A model generated the notes under the pieces. The model was not told where the DNA came from. It made no database searches and saw only the letters and a list, made by a program, of their open reading frames with translations. Source: Fimicolochytrium jonesii (lineage: Eukaryota). From it: a stretch of 64,000 nt of DNA. Of this stretch, positions 16,511-59,909 are shown one piece after another (position 1 is the first letter of the stretch; every line of letters starts with the position of its first letter). The position numbers and the translations under genes are program-made. Location of the stretch: assembly GCF_025526975.1 (NCBI RefSeq), contig NW_026515670.1, positions 1,116,001 through 1,180,000 of the forward strand, written 5' to 3'.

Positions 16511-19474
16511 ATGCACAACTACAATCACGACGATTCCAAGACCTTGACGGGCAAGGTATGGTATTCAGGGTGTACATTTAGTCGTGATCTGACTCCCTCA
16601 TCTATGCGGGCGGATGTGTAACCGTTTCTGTCGTTCATCCGCATTTAGCCCCGCAAGCGACTCACACAATCTTGCGACCGCTGCAAGGCAAAAAAGCGTC
16701 GGTGCGACGGCGGCCATCCATGCGGCAACTGCAAGAAGGCTCAGGCAACATGCACCATGCTCATCGAACAAAAGAAGCGCGGCCCCAAACGTAATTCCAT
16801 AACCACCACAACAGTATCTTCAGTGACACCAAGGAACAAGTCCACAGCAAAGATCGGCGAGGCGAGCAGTTCATCATCGATGCACGCCCAGGAGCCGACA
16901 TCCCCCTCCGTCGAGTCTGAGGACGCAATGTCTGAGGACGAAGAAGAGGAAGAGTACGAGGACGACCAAGGCACTGAGGAAGCCGAAGACGTTGAAGAGG
17001 AAGACTACGAGCTCCAAACCACACCTCAAGATACCAGCGACATGGACATCGTATACATCAACACTCCCGAAGTCGTGGACGAATCCTCACCACCATCAAA
17101 TCCTAATCGAGACTCCTTCTTCGGCGAGGGTGATGACGCCGATAACAGTAGCTTCTTCCGCGAGCTCGAGGCCTTTGGCCCAATCGTGATGGATACCACT
17201 TTACCTAGCGGTGACGACGGATCGCGCCGTGATTCCCTCTTCAGCGACGAGTTCAATTACGACATGCTGCCAAACAACTTGCAGCTGTTCGATACCGTAG
17301 GCTCGCCCGCGTTCCCATCGTCCAACACGCCAATGTCGGGGTCTACGGCCGACTACTTGAGTCAGATTCTGGGAACACCCAGCAATCTGATGAACGCGGC
17401 TGCTCTCAACGCCATTGCCCCTGCGGAATGGATTTGCGAATCTATGGCGCCGACGAACTCGATCCCTACGGTACCTCAACCGCCACTCTATCCAGCGGCG
17501 GCAAGCCACTCGACCGACATCATGGGAGATCGCGCAATGTTCCCCAGTATACCCACGTTCCCAATGAAGCCCGATTTCGCACCCCGCGCAGCGACGTGGA
17601 AGCTGTCTGATCTCAAGTCCGACGATTTGCAACTGCCTGCCTCCCTGGCCACCGGTCTCCCAGACGACTTCCACTTGCACGTCATCACATTGTACTTCAC
17701 CTACTTCCACCCATCATACCCAATCATCGACGAGCCCACCTTCTTCAAGTCGTTGCTGTCGCTGCGCGCTCGCTCCAGGCTCGCGACCGGTACTCCCGAT
17801 GACAGCTCGCCAAGGTCAATGCATCCCAGTATCGAGGGCTCCAAGCAAGATGACGCAAGCGGCAAATTAGGTGTCTTCGACGGCGCATCCGAGGCTCTCC
17901 TGAACGCCATCTACGGTATCGGCACCCTCTACTCCGCTCACCCCCACGTCGCCTCGGTCGGCGGCCGCATCCCTCTCAGCGAGCGCTTCATCCAAGTCGC
18001 TCGACGATCCCTGCGAATCGGCTCCGACGCCATCGCCCGATGCCTCATCGACACATGTACATTCGGATGTACAGTCAACACCCCGAGCGAGATGGAGCTC
18101 CTACCCGGCACATGGCGGATTGCACAGAAGCAGCAGCTGGCATTCGACAGCCCTTACTCGTCGTTGTATCACGTTGCGAACGGTCGTCAGGCGCCTACGG
18201 ATACTCAGCCGGCAGGCAAGCAGGCGAAGAAACGTGCGTGGTGGGGTATCTTCTCCCTCGATACGTTCACGGCGCTGTGCACCGGGTACGACTTCCTCGT
18301 CGATGAAGCGCGATACATGGGCGCACTCCTTGACACTGAATCGTTGTGCCGAGTTGCGACGCATACCCTCGCTGCAGAGAAAGCGGTCCAAGACTCGCGA
18401 TACGGGTTGACCTTTGCTCCGTCCGGTATTCAGATGTGGGCGTCGCCTGAGCAGGAAAGCTCGGTGGTCGACACGACACCCGAACTGGTTTGGGACGCGG
18501 CAGGTCTTGGGTCGCCTCGTTGCACTATCTTCCAATTCTCGTCGGAATGTACATCGGGGTACAGTGCCGCCCAGCAACTGTCGACACCTGCCGAGAGCAG
18601 CGCTGACCAGCTCGTGACTTCGCTTTCCGACGTACAGCCGCACATCAGGTTGTCCATCTTCCTTCGCAAGATCATTCGGGGTACCACGCAGGCGAACCAG
18701 AATACGCCAGCGCAGGTGGCGGCTCTGCACGGCAAATTGATGCGCTTATCGACTTCGTTGCCGCTGGACGTCAGGCGGTATGTGGCGATCGGTCAACCTT
18801 TGACGGCAACCGATTACGTCAAGCATCTCTCGCCTACTTCCGTGCACACCATCCTCCTCTTCCTCGCGTCGCTTTCCGTCCTTCACCAAATGCGTCTCGA
18901 GGATACGTCCATCATGCACGACACCACCGTGCTCGGCGCGACCGCCACAGGCACGTCCGTCAACACGTCAATGACGAGCCTCGGCGTCTGCTGTGCAGTG
19001 TACACCCGCGCGGTCGCTCTCCTCGACTCCATCTACGCCGCCCGCTTTGCCACATCCCTGAACGACGGCCCAACCGACAACGGCACCCTCTCGGCCCTCT
19101 CTGCACCCGCGCCGCCATACCCACCCCACGAACTCGTCGCGCTGCCCTTCACACCCGTCTTGCTCGCCCTCACCGCCATCCCCGTCCTGTCATCCAAGCA
19201 TGGCCAAGTCCTCGTCAACGCGTCCGTCGGCCATATCGGCACCGCGCCGAGCGATCTTCCCTGTCTCGAGCGGGGGATCTTACCCGCACTCGACGACATT
19301 GCGATGGTCTGGCCACGTGCGAGCTGCTACGCTGCTACCTTGCGCAGCTGGGCGGAGGTGGTGCGTGAACCTGTGGCGGTAAAGAAGACGAAGGTGGCCG
19401 ATACAGCTTCGTTGTTGTGGAAGAAGTGGGATGGTTCGTCAATGCAGAGGATCAATGTGGCATTTGATATTTGA
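16511..19474 (+). CDS. Zn(II)2Cys6 fungal transcription factor with middle homology (Fungal_trans-like) region
   Basis: Exon 1 16511-16555, intron 16556-16648 (GTATGG...TTAG), exon 2 encodes CDRCKAKKRRCDGGHPCGNCKKAQATC; later LYFTYFHPSYPII and KRAWWGIFSLD. Confidence 0.92.
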
Positions 19475-24094: not shown

Positions 24095-27000
24095 TCACTT
24101 CTGCTGAGAGTCTTCGGTGCCCACTGTTCCAGGGGTCTTCGGAGACTGTAAAGTCGTCGACGGGCTACTCTGCTGAAGCACCGCGGATAGCGGTGGCTGA
24201 GTCGACGCACGTGGACGTTGGTGCGGCGTCGGTGGCATCTGCATCTGGACCGGGAAGTAACCCAGATTATGCTGCGGTTGCGCAGACTTCTGCCTGCCCA
24301 TCCCCGGTGATGACGCCAACGCGGCCGACGCTGGCGTGAACGGGTACGGCGGGTACCACATCTGTGACGCACGAGCGTCAGGTGGATAGAGGGGCGGAGG
24401 TGTGCCTGTCGGTGTCCTCATGAGTGGAGGTGTACCGGTTGGAGCCCTCATGAGGGGAGGCGTACCGGTCGGAGTCCTCATGGTCGCAGTGCCATTGGGG
24501 GGTGAGAAGGGTAGTGAACTGGCGGGCGCAGAGAAAGGCGCACGTCCAAAATCTGCTGGATGGCCGGATGAAGATGCCCTAACCGGCCGCGAGCCTGGAG
24601 GCGGTGGGCCAAACAGAGGTGGCGGTATTGCGATGGAGGGCCGGGGTGCAAATCCAGCGGAATGAGGCACGCTTGGGTTTCGCGATGGCGTTGGTCCAGG
24701 AGTAGGGCCAGAAGCAGACATCGACTGTCCTTGGCCGAACGCGCCACGCTTGCGGTCTTCTTGTATCGTGCGTTCGCGCATCCATTCCTTCCATGTCTTC
24801 ATGAAGATCCCGTTGTGGTCGAATTCTCCGTCCCGGCGTGAGTGGTCCGCGGCTTTCCTGCCTTCTTCTCCAGTGACGACGCGTGTTTCACCCCATGAGA
24901 AATCATCGACTGTAGGAGTTTCAGAGACACGATTAGTTCAAACCCCAATAATCGACTGAATATGACACCACACTTACAATGCCAGAAAGAGTAAAGCGGT
25001 AAGATAAATTGCCACACCGGCAAAGCCAGAATGTAAACGAAGAACCACCAGATATACTTCCAGCTCCTAATCGTCAAGAGAATCATCATGGCTGGTAAAC
25101 AGATAATCGCTCCAAGCTGAATGATCGGCAACAAGACATCAAAAGTCAGGGTCAAGTTTTCGTGAACGAGGCGGAAGATGGTAATGGTGACAATGTAGAT
25201 CATATAAGCGAGCGCGGCAGGGAGCAACACTGAACCGATGAGTTCCATGAAGATGACGAACTGCATACTGAAGCAGAATGTTCCGCAAAGGTCACGGACC
25301 AGCACCAACTCGAGGAGGTTATGCAAGGTACTGTTGATCCATCGACGGCGTTGACTGAGAAGGACGCTGAAGGACGAGGGTACCACCGTCTTGCAGAGTG
25401 CCTGCGGTACAAAGACGTTGCGGCGCTTGGGGAAGGCTTTCAACATCAACGTGGTTAAGAACCGATCTTCTCCAAGAAGCAGCAGATTCTTGTCGTGCAA
25501 AGACTCAACGACGTTCTCAGAGTATTCCTCCACAACGTCCGGATTCGCCAGAATCGGGACCCAGAGATCGTTCTTGGGCGCTTTGATCCTGTACGCCGAG
25601 AAACAACCTGGAAGACACGTGACACCTCCAAAGACCGACTCGAAGGCCTTGGACAGGTGATGCGAGATGTAGTACTCGTACACCTGGATCATCGTCACCC
25701 AGCTCTCCCACTTGTTCCAAATCCTCGTTTCCCCACACACTCCCATGATCTTCGCATCGCGTTTGAAGCAGCAGACCAAATGGGTCAAAGAGTCCGGGTA
25801 CACTCTCGTGTCAGCATCGACCATCATCACCGCCTCGTAAACATCCGGGTGCACACCGGTGATCGTCCAGAGCTTGTGGAAGATATCAAACTCCAGCTCG
25901 GTCATGCGGTCGTCGAACATGACCTTGGACAAGAACTGCATAAGCAAGATCTGCGAGTCCCGTTTGCCTCTGTTGCCCGGCTTTGTCGATTTGTTGGATG
26001 GGTCGCGCTCTTCCTCGTTTCCGCATTTGACGACTAGGATCATGGGTACTCGGCCTTTTTTGCGATTGGTGAGCGTTCTTGACATGGAGTTTGTCGAGGA
26101 TTCGTCTGTTGTCGAATGGGTCGCGTCTCGGCCGGTCGCGTCTGTCAGGGCATATGCGTACCAACCCGCATACACTTTCGCGTAGTTCTTTCGCTTGGAG
26201 CCATTGGCGACAGCAACGTAGGTATATGCGTGTGGACCATGTCCGTTCTTCGGATCCTCATCCTTGAATCTCCGATCAATCTCCATCATATCAATGAGGT
26301 ACTCAGGCGTACTTCTGTCGTTACCGGATCCCTTGACGTTGCCATCCGCCACGACGAACAGAGTCTTGTGCGTTGCGGGGTAGTAGGTGCGGGCCAACGA
26401 GTCGAGCGTAGCTCGTAGCGAGGCTTGATTTTCGGAGTAACAAGGTACCATGATGAGAGTATGCATCAGAGTCGGGTCGCTCAGGATCGGATCAGTTTGC
26501 GTTTGGGTGGCAGCTAGTTGCAGGTCGCGGAACCGTGTCAGAGTGCCCATCTCTGGGATTTCATTCTCTACCGATGGAAGCGTCGGCTGCATGATTTTGC
26601 CGTCGGGAGCACGAATCGGTGTCACAGTCTTCATCGAACGCCTCCTCGGTTCCAATGGAATTGGTGCAGAGTCTTCCGTAGGGCTGCTTGGATCGGACGG
26701 ATTGGTGATGTGGAGACTGCTCAAATGACGTTCTTTGCCCTTTCCTTTCGCATTGTCGCCCAGAGGTACGATCTGAATGGACTCCACATTCGATTTCGCA
26801 GCTCCAGAGTTGGTGACGATAGGTTGAGGCTGCACGGCCGTTATCGATGCATTACCCTCCTTCCGCCGACGCTTTAGATCGGCAGCGACGCGTGAGTCTT
26901 TCCCGTTCTGTCCCATCCTCCATCCAATCAGCCATTGGAAGAGCACCGCTAGCAGAAACTTGGCCAGGACAGTACCGAGGGTGAACCCCAGACAGATGTA

Positions 27001-28326
27001 GAAGATCACGGTGCTGAGGACGCATCCAAAATTAGTGGCATCGACTTGTGCGATCCGAAACACTTCGTCTAAGCACACAGCCGTGTCTTGGATATCAGCC
27101 GACTGAGACAAGGCCTTCGTGGCGTCCATCCCGGCGTGATTGCGAATGATTGACATGATCTTCGGATCAAGGACATTCTCGATTTCGTTGATGCGGGAGA
27201 TATCCCACACCTTTCCGTTGAAGATGAGGCGTCTTTTATCCCCTTGTACGTCTTGATATTGGAGGAAGAGATCGGCTTTCTGAGCGCTACGGACCCTTTC
27301 AGCGATGCCCTGCACGCCCTGGGGCTGGGAGTGGCATGCGAACGGCGCCGGACCGCCTTGTGCCGGAGTGTTGGTGCCTGGTGGCCAGACGCCTGGTATT
27401 GTGCAGGGGAGTGCAAACGTGGCGTCCTCGGTCCGCTTCATCTGTTTGGCCCGCTCTTGGCAGCCGGACGAGACTACTGGGAACAAGTGGCTCAGATCTT
27501 TTCCAGCAATCTGTGTGTGATCAAGATAGGATTACAGAAGTTGGATAGATGAGTTAATCTGAAGAGGGAAAAAAAAATCAAACAACAGCATCACTTCACT
27601 GACCTGTGGGTAATCGATGACAGCGCGTGCGTTTGGATGGGGGTTCCCGTTCCAGATAGAGAGTGCCTGGCGAGTATCAAAAGCCTTCCCGCGAATGGCA
27701 AACATGTACTGCACGCTCCCGCCTGTCAATTCTTTGTAGCCGACCGCAGGCAAGCCCCCATTGGCCAGGCAAGCGACTTGAGTGAAAAACAGAGTCACGA
27801 ATCCGATGAGCACCATGATCAGGAAGATGATGATACAAAGAGCGAGTTTCTCTCGGAACGCCAATTGAATTCCCCTATCCCGCATTCCACAACAACGAAG
27901 CATGGGTGCGGGCAAGCAGCAAGTCAGTGTCTTGACGATGCGACGCCACCATCCTCCGGTCTGCTTATTCAAAACCACATGTTGGCCCCCACGTGTTGAT
28001 GTCACGGACGCCCGTCGTCCGGCCATAGAGATCGTCGACCCTCTCCGGCGATCCATGCTCTTTCGCCCGTGGGTGATGGCTCGATCGCTGCGTATCAGAG
28101 ACTTTTTCCTCGTCGGCCTGTTGCCGGCTGTTGGTGTTAAGGGTGACCGTGTGAAAACCGGCGGAGACTGGCTGACGGGGTGAAGCGGCGGAAGGCCAAG
28201 CGCTGAAGCTCGAGGAAAACGGCCAGCCTGGCCCGTTTGAACAGAGAGACTTTGAGCATTGCGAGGATTGTTCGGGACGAGGGTTTCTGTGGAGACGCTC
28301 GTTGCTTGACCCCTGCGTATCTCCAT
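24095..28326 (-). CDS. Chitin synthase, division 2 (class IV-like, no myosin motor domain)
   Basis: FREKLALC, CYSE, VVADG, NRGKRDSQ, VDADT, QVYEY, VTCLPGCF, LGEDRFL and QRRRW motifs; cytochrome-b5-like segment (IFNGKVWDI...HAGMDATKA); introns near 27530-27600 and 24910-24977. Confidence 0.95.
24392..24481 (-). repeat. Coding tandem repeat, 3 x 30 bp (MR[T/A]PTGTPP[L/P]) in chitin synthase tail
   Basis: MRTPTGTPPL MRAPTGTPPL MRTPTGTPPP in the ORF translation. Confidence 0.85.
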
Positions 28327-29385
28327 TGTTGAAGGGGTGCGTCGCTCTGCTACCGTCCTCTTAAAGGGTGTGGGGACAGTTACTCCGTGTTCTCTCTTGG
28401 AACACCCGCTCCCTCCACTCGCTGTTCCGCGTAATTATAAAGTATACAGTGCTGCTGTTGGGGAACCTCGCAGCTGCCTGGTGGAGAGGGCCGTTTGCGA
28501 GCGGAAATGACAATTCTGCACTTCGTGCGGAAACTGGGTTGCCCTCCGCGACTAGTCTATCTACTACAGATTTGACAATTCCCCCAAAACGTTCCAGCGA
28601 GTTCAGGTCGACCTGAAGGTTATGCTTCAACTAACTAACTTCGTTCTCTTTTTTCCCATGTCTGTCCGTTTCTATAGGACGGCTGCACGGCGAAACTAGC
28701 CGGTTCGTGGCTGGCCAGTAATAATGGGAGACTTTGGGCGAAAGATCGACCGCCTGCCCTTTGGTACGGTCTGTACGGTACCACATTTCCATCCAATTTA
28801 ACTGAAGAGGCCGCTTAAGGCCTGGCTGGCACCCGACTGGGCGGTATCCATGTCCAGCGGCAAACTTGTATGGCAGAAACCCCATGATCCCGTCCGCCGC
28901 CAACTTGAAGGAGGGGACGTTTGGGACCACAGGTCCCGGCTGGTTCTGGGTTTGGGTGAGACAGAGCGCCAAGTTCCAACCCGTCCAACTGGTCAGGTCA
29001 AGGCTATACTATGGTGTAGGTATATAACCGGTAAGGTCCTCCCTCGTCTGCATCACGTGACTCGTTTACCACAGTGTTAAGAATCGGCCATTACGCCCAG
29101 CGTTACACCACATCGTGATGTCACTGCGCATTGTCACCGCGAGCGCCCAACTATTCTCCACTACTGACTATCGACACTTCGCATGGCCACTTTCCCACAG
29201 GCTGCTTGCTTGAGCCTGCACGCTGGTGGGCGATAACAAAGTCTTGGAAAGCCCCTCTGCTTGGATAGAGAGTCTTCGTTCCCTTCTAAACGGCAACGTG
29301 GTCACTGTTGTCATTTGCATTTAGGAAGTAGTGCGTCCAACGACGTACATACATATGTGGGTGTGGGCCTGCTACGCGCTGAGGA

Positions 29386-39212: not shown

Positions 39213-40805
39213 TCAACGGGTGATCTCCTTAACTGCGGGTGCAGCACATTTTCCCTTCCCATTCTTTGTTCCCCATCCATCGACCACATCCAAAGCGGCA
39301 CCTAGCGCCCATCCCGTTTCCACTCCATTGATCTTCTTTGCTGTTTTGAGGATGCGCTGATCTGGAATATCGTATCCCACGCTCAACAGGCCGTACATAA
39401 AGCCGAGATCGGTGCACCATTCAGGGTCGCTGAAGAGTTCGACAATTTGCTTGGGAAGTGTGCCATCGGCTGTGAGTTTCGCGAGATCTTGTGGTGTCAG
39501 CTTGCCCGAGCATACTTTCTCGGCCGCTGCGCGCAGCTCACCGACCGAGAATCCTTTTTCCGACGTTTCGAGACCAAACGGTTCAGCGAATTTGTCGAAA
39601 AAGTACGAGAAGGCGTAAATATCGTTGTCGGCGAAGCTGGCCGCCAGGGACGGCTGGTAGACACCGTTGAACGAACACGAGGGCGGTGATGTAGAAGTTT
39701 TCGGCGCAGGGCAAGTTGCCTTATCGAATAGTTTCGTGCGAATGAATGCGGCACATGCATCATGATCGGTCCCCGACCCTTCAATGGTATGGATAGTTCC
39801 CGCATCGTCAAGATATTCGTCTTTATGCCCAATCGCGTAGCATGGCCATTTCTTGCTAGCCACTCCTGCCTGCTTGACACGATGGCGCCCCTGCATCAAC
39901 CCATACCCGTCATACGAGTGTTGATACAGGATGTACTTGTGTGGGCCCATCTTCAGCTCGTACTTGTGATCTCCAGGTTCCATCGGGGTTTTCGCGTCAG
40001 GCTCAAACACGATTTGTGTGGATCCACCGCCGAGGTCCATGATTGCGGCGGTCGGCAGTTTTTCCTTCTGGCCAAGCCTTTTCAGGAGATAGTTTACGGT
40101 AATCCACGCGTAAACACCTTCGTCCTTGCCCGCCATGATGGTAACCCCATTTTCAACGAGGGCAAAGGGCGACTCTTTCTCCAGCTTTCGACGCACAGCG
40201 TCGAGGATCATATCACCTTTGCCGTCCTTCAGCATCCGCAAACCAGCAGTAGCCTTTAACGTAACCGGGGTGCAAGCACGGAGACGTTCGGGAACGCTCT
40301 TCAATGCCACCTCCAACAATGGATCAAGCGAGTTTGCCGCTTCCTCGGGCGTTTTGAATTTGTCAGAACTTAATCCTGGCTTTAACTGCTCGAAAACTTC
40401 GTCTTCCAATGCTGGCGATGGCCCGTGGCAGTGGTTGAACCGGTAAACGTGAAGGCGCGAGCCCGTAGATCCCGCGTCCATAACAAGGGCGTACTGAATT
40501 GGTGGCCGGTCGGGTTCGGGATTCGGGCATCCATTCAAGGCAGAGCTCGCTTTCGAAAACGAGGAGGATATGTTATGTAGCCCTCCGCCTTTCACAAAAG
40601 CCTGCAATATGAGATAGCCTCCTATGGAGAACAACACTCCGCACAAGAAGGCTCTTGGTACGGACAAGCCGCATACGCGTGGCGGCCGCTTCAGGAACTT
40701 CGACGATCCATCCCTGTGTTTACTATGGTGCGGGAGAGCCGTATAGTCGTGGGAGTGTCTACTCCGCGAATGTGGCTGCCCGTCACCCTGCGAAGTGAAA
40801 ACCAT
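39213..40805 (-). CDS. GDA1: GDA1/CD39 family nucleoside diphosphatase (Golgi GDPase-like), single exon
   Basis: Single N-terminal TM; apyrase conserved regions DAGSTGSR, ATAGLR, EGVYAWITVNYL, DLGGGSTQ and GWALGA. Confidence 0.9.
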   Translation of the reverse strand: MVFTSQGDGQPHSRSRHSHDYTALPHHSKHRDGSSKFLKRPPRVCGLSVPRAFLCGVLFSIGGYLILQAFVKGGGLHNISSSFSKASSALNGCPNPEPDRPPIQYALVMDAGSTGSRLHVYRFNHCHGPSPALEDEVFEQLKPGLSSDKFKTPEEAANSLDPLLEVALKSVPERLRACTPVTLKATAGLRMLKDGKGDMILDAVRRKLEKESPFALVENGVTIMAGKDEGVYAWITVNYLLKRLGQKEKLPTAAIMDLGGGSTQIVFEPDAKTPMEPGDHKYELKMGPHKYILYQHSYDGYGLMQGRHRVKQAGVASKKWPCYAIGHKDEYLDDAGTIHTIEGSGTDHDACAAFIRTKLFDKATCPAPKTSTSPPSCSFNGVYQPSLAASFADNDIYAFSYFFDKFAEPFGLETSEKGFSVGELRAAAEKVCSGKLTPQDLAKLTADGTLPKQIVELFSDPEWCTDLGFMYGLLSVGYDIPDQRILKTAKKINGVETGWALGAALDVVDGWGTKNGKGKCAAPAVKEITR

Positions 40806-40973
40806 GGCGTTTACTAGAAGTAGTCCTGCTTGGTGGTCCTTCTGGATCTAGGACAAGTTGGTCTCTACGGCGGGTATCTACAGGACTACCCCGCTGTCGC
40901 AATAGCACCTCAGAGCTCCTCAGAGAGTGGACGGAACTGCGGCGCTGGGTAAGTAAATTGGGTGCTTGGTTGA

Positions 40974-45043: not shown

Positions 45044-45587
45044 TCAGTGGGTAAAGACAGGGTAAAGAAGGCCCTGAACGACCTCCAACTCATTCTCAGA
45101 AGGTTGAGACTTTTTTGGTCTGCCAGATGGTTTCTTTGACTGGTATGAGGTTGCGTTGTTCGAATCCTGATTGCTGTAAACTTTGATAGTCCTCTTAACA
45201 GCGGTGAGGCTCACGTTTTCCAGTCTCGCTATTTCACACTTATTCTTGCCTGCTTTATGCAGTGCAACTATGGCTGCCCTCTTCTGTGGGGTGAGAGGCT
45301 TCCCCATGCCGTCGCTCCAGTGTTGTTGCTGTCTGTGGTAAGGTATCTGTGGCAAGATGTTGGCCAAGATGGGAGAAAGGGGATCTCGCAATTGCGGTGG
45401 TCAACCATCCTTGCTGGTGAGGCACGGGGTGGGCGCAGCTTTATGGACCTAGACCAGTCAGTTACTAACTACGTAAGTGTCCATAAAGCTGTGCACCCCC
45501 CCATAATTGAAATCAAAGTCGGTGAGTATGGCGTCGCGGCAGTCGCTGGTTTAATTCGGGCGGGTAGCTTTATGGACACTGACTGTA
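45044..45587 (-). mobile_element. Truncated Tc1/mariner-like transposon: one terminal repeat plus N-terminal HTH of transposase
   Basis: End reads TA|CAGTCAGTGTCCATAAAGCT on the minus strand (45587 leftwards); ORF MGKPLTPQKRAAIVALHKAG...EIARLENVSLTAVKRTIK...SGRPKK is a paired-like HTH plus GRPK motif; no DDE domain or second TIR seen. Confidence 0.75.
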
Positions 45588-45775: not shown

Positions 45776-48555
45776 TCAAATCGCATCTTTCTGCTTCTTG
45801 TTCCGCTGCTTGGCGCCGCTGATGTTGGGGTTGATGACGCTTGCTGGCGCGGGCTTCGCCGAGTTCTCTGTCGTGGCATTCTCAGCAACTGGCTTCTCTT
45901 TTTCGTCCTCCTCGTCCTCCTCGTCAGACGAATCCACGTCATCTTCACCAACTTGCCCCTACAAGACATGCCAGTGCTCAGTTCGAACTTCAGTACGAAT
46001 GCCTGAATCTGAGAATCACTTACGAATTCATTCCTGCGTCGCTTGTCCTCACGGTAAACCCATCGCTGGTACAGGTAGACAAAGAACACCACGTCGTCAC
46101 GGAGACAGGCGAGACGATGCAGCCACGGCATCTTGATGACGAATGCGAACAGATCGTCTGTAGGAGGAAGGATTCAATCAGTATGGAAATCGAACGACGG
46201 GGGTTAAAAAGCTCGATGTGGTGATGTCTGACGCACCAACGAAAGTGTTCAGAGCTGGTAAGGAGAAGGCTGGTTAGTTGCGGGCTCGAGAGGATTTGAG
46301 AACGGATATTGCAACTTACCCTTGTACATGAACGTCTTCCAGGGCATATGCGCAACAGACTTCAACTTGTAGTTGACGAACAATTGCGGTGTCATGGTGA
46401 TGAAGCCTATGGACCGAAGATCAGACATGTATTCGACTATGACCTTGATGCAACGCACTGAACCTACCAAAGGCGTAAACGAAACCAACGAGCGTTCCAA
46501 TGATGTACGAATACCATCCCTTGTGTTCTTCGTAAACCAGCGAGTAGATGGCGTATGCCGCCAGACATGGGTAGAGAGCTCGGGAGACGTATTTGAATGC
46601 CATCTGGATCGACGCGTTAAAACGGTAACCCGTAGACGCACGGAAAACGCGACAATTTACCTCATCGTATTTCTTGGTTTTGGAAGCCAATTTGGAGGGT
46701 TTGACCCGATCGACGAACTCAACGTAAGGAAACTCCGGTTTACGCTGGATGCATGAGTAATTAATTACCGCTTGCGACGACGCGTCAGTAAACGGAAAGC
46801 AACCAACCTGTACGATAACGGTCTTCTGAATCTTCCAGATTTCAATGAGAAGGCCGACGCCGGTGCTGATAATGATCATCCAGCTTGTGTCGTTATCCAG
46901 AAGATATCTGCCAAGGAGCTTTAGCTTTAGAGCCTAGGATCATGGGAGCGAGAGGTACTTACAAGAAGATCACAGCCTGAAAAGCCACGTTCATGGTTAT
47001 AGCCCGGAACGAAAGTCCTTCCATGTCCTTACGCTTACGCCAGAACTGGATGTCTGCAGAACGACACCGATTGAAAAGACGGACATATGAACCTGATTTA
47101 CTGGTCTTCACTTACCATTCTTGAAAGCAAGGATGTCAAAAATGCTGTGCAACATAGACACGAACATCGTGACTCCGAGAAGATAGGGGTTGGTGTCCAT
47201 GAACATCCGCTTCATGTCGTCCGTCTCAGCAGCCGCAACGCCAAGTGTCGTCTGCTGCACGCGAAGGTTTTCCTCCAAGCCAGTGAACACCTGGTACTTG
47301 AAGTACGAAACGGGGTTGTACGAGAGCGAAAGGTTGAGGGTCCTGCGAAGACGTATGTGAGAGAGATCTGAGATAGCCGCGAGTGCATTCTAGCAACACC
47401 CTACTTGACGGTTTCATTGATGGGAGACAACTGATCAGCTGTCAGCCAGAAGTCATTGACGTAGAACGGCGGCTTGTAGTGCACGCCATCGGACTCGAGG
47501 CCGAAGTCTTGGACAGAACGTTTAGTGGAAGGATTCTCCGTCAACATGCATAGGAGGGTTGCTCTCACTTTTCAGCATCAAAGGTGGCGTGGTAGGGGGT
47601 AGGGGTGCCACATGATTCAGCACGTTCAGGGTGACATTGGGCCACCAGTAAGATATGATTGGAACCTGTCCATCCTCTTGCTCTTCCTCGGGCTACACGC
47701 GATGTCAGTGACCTCTCCTCTAGCATAGGCTCCCGCAACAGGCCTACCTCGGGATCAGCTAAGCTTCCTTCTGAGGCCACCAATTTCTTGGTCTTCTTGA
47801 CTTTGCGCTTGGGCATGAAACGGGTGAGCACTGCGGTAAAGGGAAGTTCAGAGGTGATTCACTTTACTCAATGGCGTCAGGCAGCATAAGTACATTTGCG
47901 AGAGTACAAAGGGCTTGGCGCTGGCTCCTCAGGTTGACGCTCAACATTCCCAGTGGGGTTCAGGATGAAATGGGCGTACAGACTCCCGTTTCGTTGAACG
48001 CTCTGTCATCAGCAGAAGCGTAAGCCCGGAAGGAAAGCAGGTTGTTCGAAGTGCGTGTGACCGACCTCGGGCACGTCGATGGTAACTTCCTTCGTTCTTC
48101 CCTTCCACTCTCCGAAGAAAATGTCCTTCTCTTCCCAAACGGGTGTGGCATCCGGGTTGAAATTTTCCGTCTCGGTGAGAAATGCAGAAAGAGTCTACCA
48201 ACGACGCAGTAGTTGAGCCATGCGGTTCACCAGGGGTAGCATAGAGATCTGAACAGGTACTCACAGCTCTGTCGCCAGGCAACCAAGAGGGTTGAAGGGT
48301 CCGGGTCTGGACATGAACCTGGTGGGCGGCCGGCACCGGACCGTCTTGCCCGGTTGGTGCACTGCCCTGTACGACATCTGCTGTCTCCTGGTTTCCTTTG
48401 AAGGCCCTTCCGACGGCGTTGACCGCATATGAAATCAGCAGGATACGGCCGATACTCGTAGCGATAGAGTAGAAGCCGCCGCCACCGGCTTGCTGAGCGT
48501 TGGGAGCGCCGCCAGGAGCAGCAGCAGCAGCAGCAGGTGCAGCGGGAGCGCTCAT
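45776..48555 (-). CDS. CLPTM1: CLPTM1-family membrane protein (multi-exon)
   Basis: DTNPYLLGVTMFVSMLHSIFDILAFKN, GLLIEIWKI, TKKYDE, FITMTPQLFVNYKLKSVAHMPWKTFMYK, MPWLHRLACLRDDVVFFVYLYQRWVY, RRNEFGQ. Confidence 0.92.
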
Positions 48556-49057
48556 TTGAAACAGCTCTGTCTGTGGGATGTGCGGACTTGTGTTGGGAAA
48601 GCCCGAGTGATGGCTGCTTGGGGCTGCGAAAGCTTCGAATGCCCTTCCCAGAAGGACAGCGGACGGACGGACGCGCGCGGAGTCCCTGGGAACCCAGGCA
48701 CCAGGCACAGAGGTAACCATAACCCAGACTCGTCTTACCCGAGAACGATACCGCGGCTCACTGACTGGCATCCCAGCCAACGACAGAGGCAAGAAGCTAC
48801 AACTTTCACTCCTAAGTACAGTATTTTACAGTACGTGCAAAGGACGGGGCCCAAAATATGTGGCCCTTTGGCGCTTTGGGGAACTCATGATACTATTGCA
48901 TTGGCACCTCCTTTTGCATATCCTCAGGTACTGTACTGTATGTCTGTATGTCCACTATACACTCTCTCGCTTTATCTGCTACGTGTGCCAACCCTGAGAT
49001 GCATTCACTGACTTCATATTACTTATATTACAAGCAGAATCTGGAGCAACGTCTCTC

Positions 49058-51205
49058 TCAAGGCCTATCGAGCATCATGAGCGCCGCTTCTTTGTGCGGT
49101 AATTGTATGTTCCCTCGGAAGGAAAAGCCGTGGTTCCCCAGATACCCAACCATCTTGGCATTGTCCGCCCTCGGCTCCAACACGATTCGCTGCGTCGACG
49201 CGCAATCGCTCCATATAAAATCCATCAGGCCCGTCAACCACACGGCTACTCTGTGAGGACCCCGAAAGTCTTCTTCACCCACCAACACGTGCATGCCGCG
49301 GTCGTAAGCGTGGGCGGTGTAGTATCCAGCAAGAAGATCTTTTGCGGCCCAGTAGATCTCAAAGTACGCGAAAGGGGTATCATCGAACATGCCGATGCAC
49401 GGTATGGAGTGAGGAGAAGCGAGGATCTTCGATACGTATGCCGTTTGATGGGCTTCGGTGCCTTCCTCTTGCCAGTACTTGTGAACTCGGGGGTTGCTGT
49501 GCCATCTTGCCAGCATGGTGGCATCGCCAATGGGGTCTGCCACGCGAAAGGAGAATGTCTCGTTGAGCTCGGGTATGAACCGAGAGAACAGGATCGTTGC
49601 TGGTGCGGGTTTTGTAGGGTACTCGACATGCTCTTTCTCGCCATCTCGAGAAGGCTTGCCGGACACTGGGGACGCCGGCGGAGTCAGGTTGGGTGTGAGG
49701 TGCGAGGTCGGCATTGCGTTGGGCGTTGATTGAAGTTTCATCCCTTTAAGGTGTGCTTTGATCGATTCCACTACTTCACCGCCACGAACGCCTAGGACCG
49801 AAAGCAGTGTGTCCGACAGGCCGTGTGTGTGCTCGCAGCATCCTTGAAGGTAGATCGCGGGCTGGAACCGAGATGGGTCAATCACTTGCGCCTTGTAATC
49901 GCGTCCCACCAATAAGTGGGACGTGGCCGGATCTCTCCGCAAGTACGCCATGAGAGGCGCCAGCATAGTCTCATGAGCCGACCGCTCGTAACCTGTGGCC
50001 AAGAACACGGCATTCAGCGTAAGGCTCTCGTAGATGGACGCAGCACCACGTCCGCGAATCAAATGGAGTATCACGCCTCCATTTGGTGCTTGTTCCATGG
50101 CGACCACATTGCGACCAGGAAGAAGCGTGCACTTGCGCTTGCCCGCGTGGGTCGGCAAGCCTTGCTGGTATAGCATTCCGTAAATTGAATCGATGAGGTT
50201 GGAGTTCACTACCGAGTAATTCGTGGCACCGTTGCGAGTGCGATGCGTCTGGCGATCCTGAGCGCTCATTTGGTAGAACTCGTCTCGGTATTCAGGATTG
50301 AAGACCTCGTTGACAAAAGGCGATGCATCAGAGGGACGCAGTGCCGTGTCGCGGAAGATCAGCTTGATTGTTGCGTTAGGGTAACGGTCGCTCAGATCCT
50401 AGGTCGGAAGGTTGATGGTTGCGCCCGAGTGCGTGACAAACATTGAAACAGTTCTCACCATAAAAAGCTCTGCCCCAGACTGCCCTTGACCGATGACAGC
50501 AATGGTGTACGGCGCATCTCGGTCAGGAAGCATACTCTGCACACGGTGGATATATTGCGACGAGTGCGCTACCGCCGGACAGTCACGCGACGAGGTGTTG
50601 TTACTGGCTGCTGCAAAGTACATGCGTGCGAATTCGGGATACTTCGGTTGCCCGCCGACGGCCATAACCAGCGACTTTGTCTCACGAACCGATCGCAAAC
50701 CGGTGCTGGTGTTTTCCGACTCGACGCGAACACGCGAGACGACCCCGGACTTGTCGCACACGACCGGTTCGATTGAAAGAACCCGTTCGCCGTAGGTGCA
50801 GCTGTTATCGAACTTGGCGGCGACCCATGACAGGTAGTCGTTGAACTCTTCGCGATACGGGGTCCACGATCCAAGATTCATGAACGGGACGAGGCGGTCG
50901 TTCTCGTGGAGGTATTTGACGAACGAGAAGCGGCTGGAAGGGTTGCGCAGCGTAACGAGATCTTTGAGGAATGATATCTGCATCTTGGAGCCGTCGAGGA
51001 GCATGCCTCCGTGCCAGCAGAACGATGCTTGCTTTTCAAGGAACTCGACCTTCATGCGGTCAGCTGAAGAAGTGGTGTTGAGGTCTGCCGTGCTGATGAG
51101 CCCCTCATCTGCCATGGCTGTGGCGATGGATAGTCCCGCCGGGCCGAACCCGACGCAGAGGACATCACTGCAGTCGGTTTCTTGGGTCGAGGCTATGGAC
51201 GACAT
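49058..51205 (-). CDS. sidA: L-ornithine N5-monooxygenase (SidA/IucD family) fused to C-terminal N5-hydroxyornithine acyltransferase (IucB/AlcB-type GNAT); about 695 aa, one intron 50399-50458
   Basis: FAD motif CVGFGPAG, WHGGML, MQISFLKDL, NADPH motif GQGQSG, NYSVV, FLATGY, THGLSDTLLS; no stop before acyltransferase motifs WHSNPRV, YFEIYWAAKD, DRGMHVLVGE, EPRADN, LPHKEA. Confidence 0.92.
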
Positions 51206-55453: not shown

Positions 55454-57150
55454 CTAGGAGACAAGAAACTTGAAATTCTGGTAGAAGGTCAACATTGGAT
55501 TTTCTCCAGACTTTGTCCTCGTTTCGCTGAGGTTCGCATTCCGTTCCAGGAACTCTTGCTGTGTCATAACTGTCGCAGGGGTACTACGTCGACCCTCTCC
55601 CCCAACGACCTTGTTGTACATATCCCTCATCAATTCAAAATTCGTGGGAAAGAAGATGTCGAACCATCCCGGTTGCACAAGGTACGTAGAGCACGGAATC
55701 ATCATGCCTTGATACCTAGTTTGCACGACCGGTGCATCGATGCCCGGAACAGCGTCCGGGAGAGAATCGAAGTCTGAGAGGATAAGACGATGTTTCGGAA
55801 ATCGGGCGTGAAGCTGGTCAAATAGTCTCAGACACATTGTAGGAAGGAATTCCGGCTCTGTGAGATTTGGTGCAAACGGAAGAATGGAGCGGAGGTTGCG
55901 GCGCCATGGATGGGATATGAGGGGCGATCGGTACCCGAGGCTTGCCCGCAACTCTAAGTACCGTTGAATGGTAGGGTCATTGAGAGGTTCATAGGCTTCC
56001 TGGTAATCCCCGTCCTCGTCGATCAGAACGACACCCTGTAGAGGTGCCCCTGTCGCATAGTCGTACCGCACCATGTCGTGGGCAAAATTATCCTGTGTGG
56101 GAAGCTTCTGTCAGAATACGCCCGGGGGAACGAGGAGCCATACCACCTCTACTCACAATGACCTCCATTGCGATAATGAAGCATGAGTCCGGAACTTGTT
56201 CGTCCCACGTAAAGATCGACTTGTTGATGATTTCCACGCAGTTGTGCCTCCGTGTCACGTCCCTTACGTCCTGCCTTTCTGATTGTCTTTCTGCCAGTTT
56301 CGAGCTGATTTCGATGATCCGGTACCTCGTCCGCTCATACAGTTCTGGTTCATACATTTGGATATAATCCAAGATGTTGACCATCAGCGTTCCATTTCCG
56401 GCCCCGACCTCATAGATAATCAAATCTTTTATCCCTCCATCATCTCGCTTGAACTCTGAGACTATGTGCTTCGCTACAGCGTATCCATACCATGGCTGAG
56501 GTGAAGATTAGCATAAACCGTCTACAGGAGTTTGACGAGCTGCAGTCACATACCTTGAATAATTCAGTTGGCGTATGCCAAACCTGCCTGGCAATATCAT
56601 TCGCTTCGTTGAAATCACCCTCCACTTCCCTATACAGCGCCGACAAGTGGTTCATAAACTCATAGCTGTCGCGGATATCCTTAAATCGGATATTCTCGGC
56701 GGGACTGAAAATGAAGGCCTTTTTGGAAAAGTAGCCATAGGATGGGTTGTACAGCGAATCGTCGATGAAGTCCCGCACAAGCATGCGTGCGCAAGAGGGC
56801 GGGTTCGTAGAGGCAGCGGCGTCGATGGCAGTCAAGCGCCGATATGATTCAACTGGAACAGGTTCGTGTTTCGGAGCTCGTCGTTTGTCCATTGCATCCC
56901 TGTTGGCGAGTACTTCCAGTTTAGCGAACCCACAAATACGCAGGATGCGATACAATACAAGTCAAATGACAAAGTAACCCTCTCAAACGCACCAGTAGTT
57001 CGTACGCTGGCAAACGCCAGCGTGGAAGCTCCGCCGTGCACTTGGCCCACAGTTGTTGAAGGTAGAAGGTGCTACTGGCTTTCTCAGGCACTTAATATCT
57101 CTTGGCCGCCGGTGGCAGACGGCGGCGGCACTCCTCCTTGCCGCGTTCAT
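55454..57150 (-). CDS. SAM-dependent methyltransferase, NDUFAF7/MidA family, probably mitochondrial
   Basis: RDFIDDSLYNPSYGYFSK, WHTPTELFK, IYEVGAGNGTLM, DNFAHD, ILSDF, FDIFFPTNF; Arg-rich first exon MNAARRSAAAVCHRRPR at 57150 resembles a targeting peptide. Confidence 0.85.
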
Positions 57151-59095: not shown

Positions 59096-59909
59096 CTACA
59101 ATTTGCTTGATACGGCTATCCCGCCCTTTCCCTTTGCTCGAACTTTACCTCTTATAAAAAGAGGATCTGTCCTTCTAAGCATCAAAAAGGCCGCAGTTTT
59201 GTGTGGAAGTCTCACAGCGCGAACAAAGGAAACGCCTGCGGTGCAGAGCAGACCGATGAGCTTGCCATGCGTCAAGGAGGGCTCCATAACTAGGCGCTGC
59301 GTTTCGCAACAGTCGGAGAAGATAAACTCAGGTATGGCCTCGATCCAAGCCTGCACGCGGTCCACACCTCGATACTTTGTTTCGCCCACGAGAAGATGGA
59401 CCCCTCGATCGTACGGCTCGGCGGGATAGTATCTACCAAACAGATCATAGGCCGCCCAGTACACTTCGAGGTACATGAATGGTACGCCATCGAACGCGGC
59501 GATGCAGGGAATGCTGTGCTTGGAGGATAGGACCTTGTTCAGGTACTGGCGATGATGGTTTTCATCCCCTCCTTCTTTCCAAAATTCGCTGTTTTCAGAT
59601 GGGTCGAATCAGCGCTCCACCGGCGGAAGGGATATCTCGATACACACGCTACTCTAAAGCATACCTCACGCGAGGATCGGAGTGCCACCTAGTCAACATG
59701 GGGATGTCGGTCGACGGATCAGCGACTCTGATCGTAAAGGTCTCATTGAGTCCCGGCATGAACTTGGTGAATATGAGCGTTCCTGGCGCGGGCTTTGGTG
59801 GGATGGGATGAAGACACGTCTGGGATGAAGCAGAGGCTGGCTCTGCATCGGTGGACACCGACGTGGGGAGTCGCTTCTCACCGATGTTGTGAGCCTGATG
59901 TTGCTGCAT
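59096..59909 (-). CDS. Stand-alone N5-hydroxyornithine acyltransferase (IucB/AlcB-type GNAT; SidF/SidL/Sib3-like catalytic domain), intron 59589-59664
   Basis: Spliced product about 245 aa: WHSDPRVSEFW, YLEVYWAAYD, DRGVHLLVGE, MEP, LPHKTA; collinear with the C-terminal domain of the 49058-51205 fusion. An extra upstream exon is possible. Confidence 0.88.

What the first reader, a model, noticed from the sequence alone, without database searches (positions are those of the whole stretch)
49058..51205. Ornithine N5-monooxygenase fused in frame to a hydroxyornithine acyltransferase
Seen: after one 60-bp GT-AG intron the SidA-type monooxygenase reads without a stop through a Pro/Ser/Thr linker (TPNAMPTSHLTPNLTPPASPVS) into a complete IucB/AlcB-type GNAT domain, and the junction lies inside a single exon. 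Known: in characterised fungal pathways these steps are separate proteins (Aspergillus SidA + SidF/SidL; S. pombe Sib2 + Sib3). Inference: a bifunctional enzyme converting ornithine to N5-acyl-N5-hydroxyornithine, possibly channelling the unstable hydroxylamine intermediate.
Basis: partly seen in the sequence, partly recalled or inferred. Interest (0 to 1): 0.88.

Follow-up and report, generated by a model that had tools for sequence, protein, structure and literature searches.

The report
Fused siderophore hydroxylase-acyltransferase in chytrid fungi
A chytrid fungus encodes, in one reading frame, relatives of the two enzymes that moulds and fission yeast keep separate to begin making iron-scavenging siderophores, so it likely builds such chelators with one tethered enzyme, although papers have treated chytrids as lacking this pathway.

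Summary
Confirmed. A minus-strand gene (51205-49058, one 60-bp intron) encodes 695 aa: a SidA-type ornithine N5-monooxygenase, a ~41-aa linker and a SidF/SidL-type GNAT domain, the junction inside exon 2. The oxygenase part is identical to a partial NCBI model from the chytrid Fimicolochytrium jonesii that omits the GNAT. All mutationally tested SidA residues and the GNAT His are kept. The fusion is no artefact: 20 other records from chytrids, Conidiobolus and Basidiobolus carry it; Lentzea has an independent reverse-order fusion. The linker varies from 17 to 158 aa and two models of homologues give no sign of docking, so a flexible tether is likelier than a channel. The oxygenase sits where SidF/SidL have their stabilising N-terminal domain. 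A stand-alone duplicate of the GNAT half lies 8 kb away and ends in SKL (likely peroxisomal, like SidF). Two papers say chytrids lack SidA/SidF homologues; nine paper searches found no such fusion. No RNA, enzyme or downstream-synthetase evidence was obtained. The scan noted this fusion before in two other genomes. New variant of a known pathway.

The parts
50459..51205 (-). Exon 1 of the fused gene (aa 1-249): FAD-binding motif, Lys81 (=SidA Lys107), NADPH motif with Ser243 (=Ser257)
   Evidence: start ATG fits the N-termini of homologues but an upstream exon is not excluded
50399..50458 (-). 60-bp phase-0 GT..AG intron; ends in an in-frame TAG if retained
   Evidence: same splice in NCBI model P0002
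49058..50398 (-). Exon 2 (aa 250-695 and TGA): end of monooxygenase, linker, GNAT domain, all in one frame
49751..51175 (-). SidA-type L-ornithine N5-monooxygenase domain, aa 11-465 (spans the intron); Arg265, Asn279, Asn309, Ser449 = SidA Arg279, Asn293, Asn323, Ser469
   Evidence: PF13434; E 2e-110 to A. fumigatus SidA structures; envelope; residues
49628..49750 (-). Pro/Ser/Thr-rich linker, about aa 466-506, not conserved, predicted disordered
   Evidence: pLDDT < 50 in the homologue model
49067..49627 (-). SidF/SidL-type catalytic GNAT domain, aa 507-693; His619 (=Rv1347c His130, Sib3 His248) and Glu657 (=Rv1347c Asp168)
   Evidence: PF13523; E 4e-40 to SidF 7qf6
59096..59909 (-). Stand-alone 245-aa GNAT gene (76-bp intron 59664-59589), 54% identical to the fused GNAT domain, a duplicate of the fusion's 3' half; keeps the His, changes the residues after the Glu, ends in SKL
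   Evidence: identical NCBI model P0377; groups with the fused GNATs
59099..59107 (-). C-terminal SKL, a canonical PTS1-type peroxisomal signal, on the stand-alone GNAT
   Evidence: SKL/AKL as PTS1 of SidH/SidF in PMC3709128; localisation untested

Best explanation
The gene encodes one 695-aa protein joining a SidA-type monooxygenase to a SidF/SidL-type GNAT domain, which likely turns L-ornithine into N5-acyl(probably acetyl)-N5-hydroxyornithine, the iron-binding unit of a predicted ferrichrome-type siderophore. Shown: the single frame, both folds, the catalytic residues, conservation of the fusion. Inferred step 1: FAD/NADPH/O2-dependent N5-hydroxylation of ornithine in the N-terminal domain. 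Inferred step 2: the hydroxylamine diffuses a short way to the GNAT domain, held on a floppy tether, where His619 drives acyl transfer from an acyl-CoA. Inferred role of the fusion: 1:1 stoichiometry, co-expression and proximity (the covalent form of the Sib2-Sib3 complex of fission yeast), with the probably tetrameric oxygenase standing in for the N-terminal scaffold domain that SidF needs for stability. No targeting signal at the C-terminus, so likely cytosolic. The building block would go to an unlinked NRPS; the SKL-ending duplicate may add a second, peroxisomal acylation.
For: Single ORF and domains. Best solved relatives are ornithine enzymes: SidA 373 bits, PvdA 315, against 155 or less for lysine/diamine hydroxylases. 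Lys107, Ser257, Arg279, Asn293, Asn323, Ser469, whose roles are described in PMC7347517 (passages), are all kept in the window and in 17/17, 19/19, 19/19, 19/19, 18/19 and 20/20 fused homologues with a residue there; GNAT His 18/18, Glu 18/18. His248 of Sib3 is essential, and Sib2 binds the C-terminal part of Sib3's GNAT domain (PMC11424930, abstract and Discussion). SidF's GNAT domain alone is active in vitro but unstable and non-functional in vivo without its N-terminal domain (bioRxiv 2024.08.20.608788). Fusion in 20 records from 10 named genera. Both halves fall in fungal clades beside SidA and SidF/SidL. 28 of 80 metagenome loci have the two genes side by side. Basidiobolus, which has the fusion, shows siderophore activity and a SID-clade NRPS (PMC7466969, passages).
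Against: No enzyme data. No NRPS, NIS synthetase or siderophore transporter among the 90 window ORFs scanned, so the end product is unlinked and unproven for this species. Four oxygenase records of the same clade lack the GNAT (P0036, P0053 labelled partial; P0216 Chytridium, P0218 Cladochytrium not so labelled), and their DNA could not be read, so the fusion may not be universal. The acyl donor cannot be read from the sequence: the fused GNATs are sister to SidF and SidL together. Tetramer formation and cytosolic location are carried over from SidA, not tested.
Confidence: 0.8

Rival explanations
1. True channelling: the GNAT docks on the oxygenase (in cis or on a neighbour in the tetramer) at a defined interface and takes the hydroxylamine directly; the linker only raises the local concentration of a real complex.
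For: Sib2 and Sib3 bind each other through mapped regions; two independent fusions of the same pair, in opposite order, suggest selection for contact.
Against: Linker 17-158 aa and 12% identity; pTM 0.67 and 0.71 are close to the oxygenase's share of the chain (about 0.65 and 0.68), as expected if the two domains are not placed confidently (my inference, PAE not shown, monomers only). In A. fumigatus hydroxyornithine is taken to cross the peroxisomal membrane between SidA and SidF, so it survives free diffusion.
Confidence: 0.15
2. Same chemistry, other product: the enzyme hydroxylates and acylates lysine or a diamine, or feeds a non-siderophore metabolite.
For: Best single-domain hits of the GNAT by score are bacterial proteins labelled N6-hydroxylysine acetyltransferase; SidA can bind lysine (PDB 4b64 title); no siderophore synthetase nearby.
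Against: Oxygenase nests among fungal SidA sequences and scores far higher on ornithine enzymes; in the tree the GNAT groups with fungal SidF/SidL at 100/97, not with IucB.
Confidence: 0.1
3. The frame is continuous but the cell makes two units (early polyadenylation, internal start at Met471/478, or cleavage in the linker), or only one half works.
For: The NCBI model covers only the oxygenase; two Met codons lie in the linker; a separate GNAT gene exists nearby.
Against: That model is labelled partial, with neither start nor stop; no stop or canonical donor follows the oxygenase; both halves are equally conserved (47% and 49%); full-length models exist in many relatives.
Confidence: 0.04
4. 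Assembly artefact joining two neighbouring genes.
For: No reads could be laid on the junction; an open in-frame gap has about 7% chance probability.
Against: The same order and frame in 20 records from other assemblies; no N, no repeat and even GC across the junction.
Confidence: 0.01

Closest known systems
Aspergillus fumigatus SidA (L-ornithine N5-monooxygenase; PDB 4b63, 6x0h)
   Same: Same family and fold (E 2e-110; homologue model TM 0.9 to SidA chains); all tested active-site residues kept.
   Different: SidA is stand-alone; here a GNAT domain follows in frame.
A. fumigatus SidF (PDB 7qf6) and SidL; S. pombe Sib3
   Same: Catalytic C-terminal GNAT domain with the essential His (E 4e-40); sister group in the GNAT tree.
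   Different: No N-terminal oligomerisation domain; the oxygenase takes its place. No PTS1 on the fused protein here (SidF has one), but the 245-aa duplicate ends in SKL and a Basidiobolus fusion ends in AKL.
S. pombe Sib2-Sib3 complex (PMC11424930)
   Same: The same two steps physically linked.
   Different: Non-covalent, two genes, differently regulated; here one polypeptide.
Lentzea GNAT-monooxygenase fusion (P0231, WP_189253289; not found described in the papers searched)
   Same: Both domains in one ORF, beside an NRPS condensation gene and an MFS transporter.
   Different: Reverse order, no long linker, both halves deep in bacterial groups: an independent fusion; 5 of 38 loci examined.
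Bacterial IucB/OrbL-like acyltransferases next to PvdA-like genes; DfoC (PDB 5o7o)
   Same: Neighbouring genes in 28 of 80 metagenome loci; DfoC is a 787-aa siderophore protein with a related GNAT domain at its N-terminus (its fusion to a synthetase is recalled).
   Different: 0 of those 80 loci is fused; DfoC joins the acyltransferase to the downstream, not the upstream, step.

Membership tests
SidA/PvdA L-ornithine N5-monooxygenases | PF13434 domain above the curated cut-off, SidA fold | tested here: met
   210 and 89 bits for the two exons against cut-off 21.3; fold search of the Spizellomyces model, top hits SidA then PvdA
SidA/PvdA L-ornithine N5-monooxygenases | Ornithine-binding Lys107, Asn293, Asn323, Ser469 | tested here: met
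   Lys81, Asn279, Asn309, Ser449 (mapping counted; roles)
SidA/PvdA L-ornithine N5-monooxygenases | NADPH-selectivity residues Ser257 and Arg279 | tested here: met
   Ser243, Arg265
SidA/PvdA L-ornithine N5-monooxygenases | Grouping with fungal SidA in a tree | tested here: met
   fungal side of the branch 98, 90/95
SidA/PvdA L-ornithine N5-monooxygenases | Homotetramer; coupled hydroxylation of ornithine | not testable with these tools
   needs protein
SidF/SidL/Sib3 hydroxyornithine acyltransferases | C-terminal MbtK/IucB-type GNAT domain with catalytic His | tested here: met
   PF13523 169 bits; His619 aligned to Rv1347c His130
SidF/SidL/Sib3 hydroxyornithine acyltransferases | N-terminal solubility/oligomerisation domain | tested here: not met
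   only about 41 aa between the domains; profiles of the N-terminal parts find no such domain, though these profiles are insensitive
SidF clade or SidL clade | Nesting inside one of the two clades | tested here: not met
   fused GNATs form a third group, sister to both (97/84; 86/85); clade labels rest on database names and lengths; no basidiomycete or Sib3 rows were in the set
SidF clade | C-terminal PTS1 | tested here: not met
   fused protein ends in ...DRP; met by the 245-aa duplicate (SKL)
SidF/SidL/Sib3 hydroxyornithine acyltransferases | Acyl-CoA specificity | not testable with these tools
   needs assay
Fungal hydroxamate siderophore pathway | Downstream ferrichrome/fusarinine/coprogen NRPS in the genome | tested here: inconclusive
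   none in 90 window ORFs; no genome held; unchecked earlier notes report such an NRPS in Spizellomyces

The most novel reading that the evidence does not exclude
Hydroxamate siderophore synthesis goes back to the flagellated root of Fungi, where a single fused hydroxylase-acyltransferase made the chelating unit; and this chytrid has re-invented the Aspergillus SidL/SidF split by duplicating the GNAT half and giving it a peroxisomal signal, so that it makes two differently acylated hydroxamates in two compartments.
Probability: 0.25. Interest if true: 0.82.

Novelty: new variant of a known kind. Interest (0 to 1): 0.62.

Why it matters
It corrects a stated absence: PMC3709128 found no SidA/SidF homologue in Batrachochytrium and inferred no hydroxamates, and the 2024 SidF preprint lists Chytridiomycota among groups without SidF/SidL homologues. 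Soil and aquatic chytrids of several orders carry both activities in one gene, which changes who competes for iron in those habitats and dates fungal hydroxamate synthesis much earlier (or shows fungus-to-fungus transfer). It is a natural 'Rosetta stone' for the recently found Sib2-Sib3 complex, gives one polypeptide on which to test hand-over of hydroxyornithine, shows that the GNAT can do without SidF's N-terminal domain, and offers a one-gene source of acyl-hydroxyornithine for engineering. Automatic annotation hides it: this genome's model drops the GNAT and relatives are named only as monooxygenases.

Tried and rejected
No whole genome held, so the downstream synthetase, other paralogues and read support could not be searched. 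Sequencing runs: no RNA holder listed; no reads laid. Pfam scans of 35 + 55 window ORFs gave no NRPS, NIS or transporter: no siderophore cluster in the window beyond the two genes. HGATAR-type sites: 1 in 1.2 kb upstream of the fusion, 2 in 1 kb upstream of the duplicate, too few to claim iron regulation. NCBIfam gave nothing at cut-off. Profiles of IucB/SidF/SidL N-terminal parts found no remnant in 19 fused or related proteins, only the start of the GNAT; a W-x-W motif in the linkers of Basidiobolus, Conidiobolus and Chytridiales looked like a remnant but was not supported. Search for other stand-alone chytrid GNATs of 90-287 aa returned only this genome's own (1 hit among 66 candidates): too insensitive to say the duplicate is species-specific. 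The test of whether the two window GNATs are sisters did not finish. P0276 (Derxia) looked fused but has two GNAT repeats and no oxygenase. A first oxygenase tree without basidiomycetes left the fused group unresolved. PMC8887899, PMC11380514 and PMC2922099 were searched by term and had nothing on this fusion.

Full report
Observation. The gene lies on the minus strand: ATG 51205, exon 1 to 50459, a 60-bp phase-0 GT..AG intron (50458-50399), exon 2 to the TGA at 49058; 695 aa without internal stop. Pfam places Lys_Orn_oxgnase across both exons and Acetyltransf_8 (profile 4-145 of 145) at the end of exon 2, so the junction is inside one exon. Exon 2 has no canonical donor site, and the other two frames of the linker hold stops. 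The window has no N; GC is even and no repeat crosses the junction. An open in-frame gap of this length has about a 7% chance probability, so the frame alone would not settle the matter.

Source and annotation. The oxygenase part is 100% identical to a 464-aa NCBI model labelled partial, from the chytrid Fimicolochytrium jonesii; it uses the same intron and ends where the oxygenase ends. The fusion is therefore missed by the public annotation of this genome.

Distribution. With exon 2 as query, 9 of the best 120 listed hits (1239 hits among 5903 candidates) carry both Pfam domains; all the named ones are chytrids or Conidiobolus. A search of longer proteins added Thoreauomyces (1 of 110). A profile of ten fused proteins against 1.84 billion representatives gave 10 two-domain proteins among the best 150: nine in oxygenase-GNAT order, whose named members are chytrids, Conidiobolus and Basidiobolus, and one in reverse order from Lentzea. 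In all, 20 other records have the fungal fusion, from Spizellomyces, Powellomyces (two paralogues), Thoreauomyces, Phlyctochytrium, Rhizophlyctis, Nowakowskiella, Globomyces, Kappamyces, an unnamed Chytridiales isolate, Conidiobolus, Basidiobolus and metagenome records; several are partial and B. ranarum is cut just after the GNAT begins. Against universality: four oxygenase records of this group have no GNAT (two labelled partial, two not). No named ascomycete or basidiomycete record seen was fused. Of the best 80 of 513 metagenome loci (a quarter of that collection scanned), 0 are fused and 28 have a separate GNAT gene close by; most look bacterial, three fall among ascomycetes. The reverse fusion is a single ORF in 5 of 38 GTDB loci (four Lentzea, one actinomycete MAG), next to an NRPS condensation gene and an MFS transporter.

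Catalytic anatomy. The best solved relatives are A. fumigatus SidA (373 bits) and PvdA (315); lysine and diamine hydroxylases score 155 or less. Counting along that alignment, SidA Lys107, Ser257, Arg279, Asn293, Asn323 and Ser469, whose roles are given in PMC7347517 (passages), are Lys81, Ser243, Arg265, Asn279, Asn309, Ser449, and are nearly invariant in the fused set. The GNAT's best solved relative is SidF (7qf6, E 4e-40); His619 and Glu657 align with Rv1347c His130 and Asp168 and are present in 18 of 18 homologues with a residue there. The matching His248 of Sib3 is essential, the Glu is not (PMC11424930 Discussion). Mean identity to 15 full-length homologues is 47% (oxygenase), 12% (linker), 49% (GNAT); the linker runs from 17 to 158 aa by a wide definition, 54 here (41 aa by HMM envelopes).

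Structure. Two natural homologues were folded, not the window protein itself. Spizellomyces: mean pLDDT 88.6, pTM 0.67, residues 465-508 below 50, top fold matches SidA and PvdA. Nowakowskiella, short linker: pLDDT 91.0, pTM 0.71. Both domains are confident; pTM close to the oxygenase's share of the chain suggests that their relative position is not fixed (inference; monomers only, PAE not shown).

Mechanism. Most likely (0.8) the N-terminal domain hydroxylates ornithine with FAD, NADPH and O2, and the tethered GNAT acylates the hydroxylamine from an acyl-CoA, probably acetyl-CoA in the cytosol, giving the hydroxamate unit for an unlinked NRPS. Two published results make sense of the fusion. 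Sib2 and Sib3 of S. pombe bind each other through the C-terminal part of the GNAT domain (abstract and Discussion), so the fusion is a covalent version of that pair. SidF's GNAT domain alone is active in vitro but unstable and non-functional in vivo; its N-terminal domain gives solubility and oligomerisation (bioRxiv 2024.08.20.608788: abstract, introduction, passages, Discussion). That domain is missing in the fusion, and the oxygenase probably replaces it as scaffold. Fixed channelling is possible (0.15) but the variable linker argues for proximity and stoichiometry instead. All chemistry is inferred.

A second gene. At 59909-59096 lies a 245-aa stand-alone GNAT (76-bp intron), 54% identical to the fused domain, identical to NCBI model P0377 on the same contig. 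It sits among the fused GNATs of Spizellomyces and kin (98/97; 99/97), so it arose by duplicating the fusion's 3' half. It keeps the His, alters the residues after the Glu, and ends in SKL, the PTS1 type that sends SidH and SidF to peroxisomes (PMC3709128, passages). One Basidiobolus fusion ends in AKL and one Powellomyces paralogue has an N-terminus that looks like a mitochondrial presequence (judged by eye). Compartment and substrate are untested.

Evolution. GNAT tree (67 rows: 17 fused-group, 20 hand-picked long GNATs, 21 hand-picked short ones, 9 of 28 locus ORFs after an identity filter): fungal rows form one group (100/97), with the fused group (97/84) sister to SidF-like plus SidL-like rows; without the long Lentzea row and with a mixture model the fused group has 86/85 (two unnamed rows that I had mislabelled were reassigned). 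No basidiomycete GNAT or Sib3 was in the set. Oxygenase trees: the chytrid-plus-Zoopagomycota group has 97 by FastTree on 163 rows but only 71/95 in IQ-TREE on 58 rows; it joins ascomycetes to the exclusion of basidiomycetes (98/98), yet Dikarya monophyly is not rejected (p-AU 0.145). One fusion event is the simplest reading. Since chytrids and Zoopagomycota are not sister groups in the accepted fungal tree (recalled), this needs either an ancient fused copy lost in Dikarya or transfer among fungi; my data do not decide. The Lentzea fusion is independent.

What is known. Nine full-text searches (listings seen) turned up no report of a monooxygenase-acyltransferase fusion; the library lacks most subscription papers. 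PMC3709128 found no SidA or SidF homologue in Batrachochytrium and inferred no hydroxamates; the SidF preprint lists Chytridiomycota among groups without homologues (its supplementary species list could not be seen); PMC2644324 found no ferrichrome NRPS in the one chytrid examined (passages); PMC10500206 names only Asco- and Basidiomycota as producers (passages). PMC7466969 reports SID-clade NRPS domains in Basidiobolus and Conidiobolus coronatus and CAS activity in B. meristosporus (passages). Earlier notes of this scan report the same fusion in two other genomes and a six-module ferrichrome-like NRPS in chytrids; these are unchecked AI notes, and the NRPS was not tested here.

Verdict. Real, intact and conserved; a new architecture for the first two steps of a known pathway, in lineages treated as lacking it. 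New variant of a known kind; interest 0.62.

Noticed in passing
window 59096-59909 (-): Stand-alone duplicate of the fusion's GNAT half with a C-terminal SKL; possible independent origin of a peroxisomal SidF-like enzyme.
   Followed up: partly
L081 5995-7797 (+); also L082-L085: Lentzea GNAT-monooxygenase fusion in reverse order, in an NRPS cluster with an MFS transporter and a KAS III-like gene; not found described in the papers searched.
   Followed up: partly
P0213 (Basidiobolus meristosporus), P0004 (Powellomyces hirtus): Fused paralogues with different likely targeting: C-terminal AKL in one, a presequence-like N-terminus in the other; both species have two SidA-type genes.
   Followed up: no
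P0296, P0298, P0343: Bacterial-looking ornithine/lysine monooxygenases with an extra C-terminal domain of about 200 aa (640-711 aa in all), a different recurring fusion; domain not identified by a call.
   Followed up: no
P0276 (Derxia lacustris): Two IucB-like acyltransferase units in tandem in one 712-aa protein.
   Followed up: no
window 50399-50458: The intron is a multiple of three with its only stop at the acceptor; retention would give a 269-aa truncated oxygenase.
   Followed up: no
window 46000-48600 (-), 55454-56961 (-), 24098-28434 (-), 39213-40847 (-), 16649-19474 (+): Ordinary neighbours: CLPTM1, SAM methyltransferase (PF02636), chitin synthase, GDA1/CD39 phosphatase, Zn2Cys6 transcription factor.
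   Followed up: no
window 45044-45400 (-): Weak HTH_23/HTH_29 match, perhaps a transposase remnant.
   Followed up: no
L066 2430-8768 (-): NRPS-like ORF divergent from an ascomycete-type sidA, the usual ferrichrome cluster layout.
   Followed up: no
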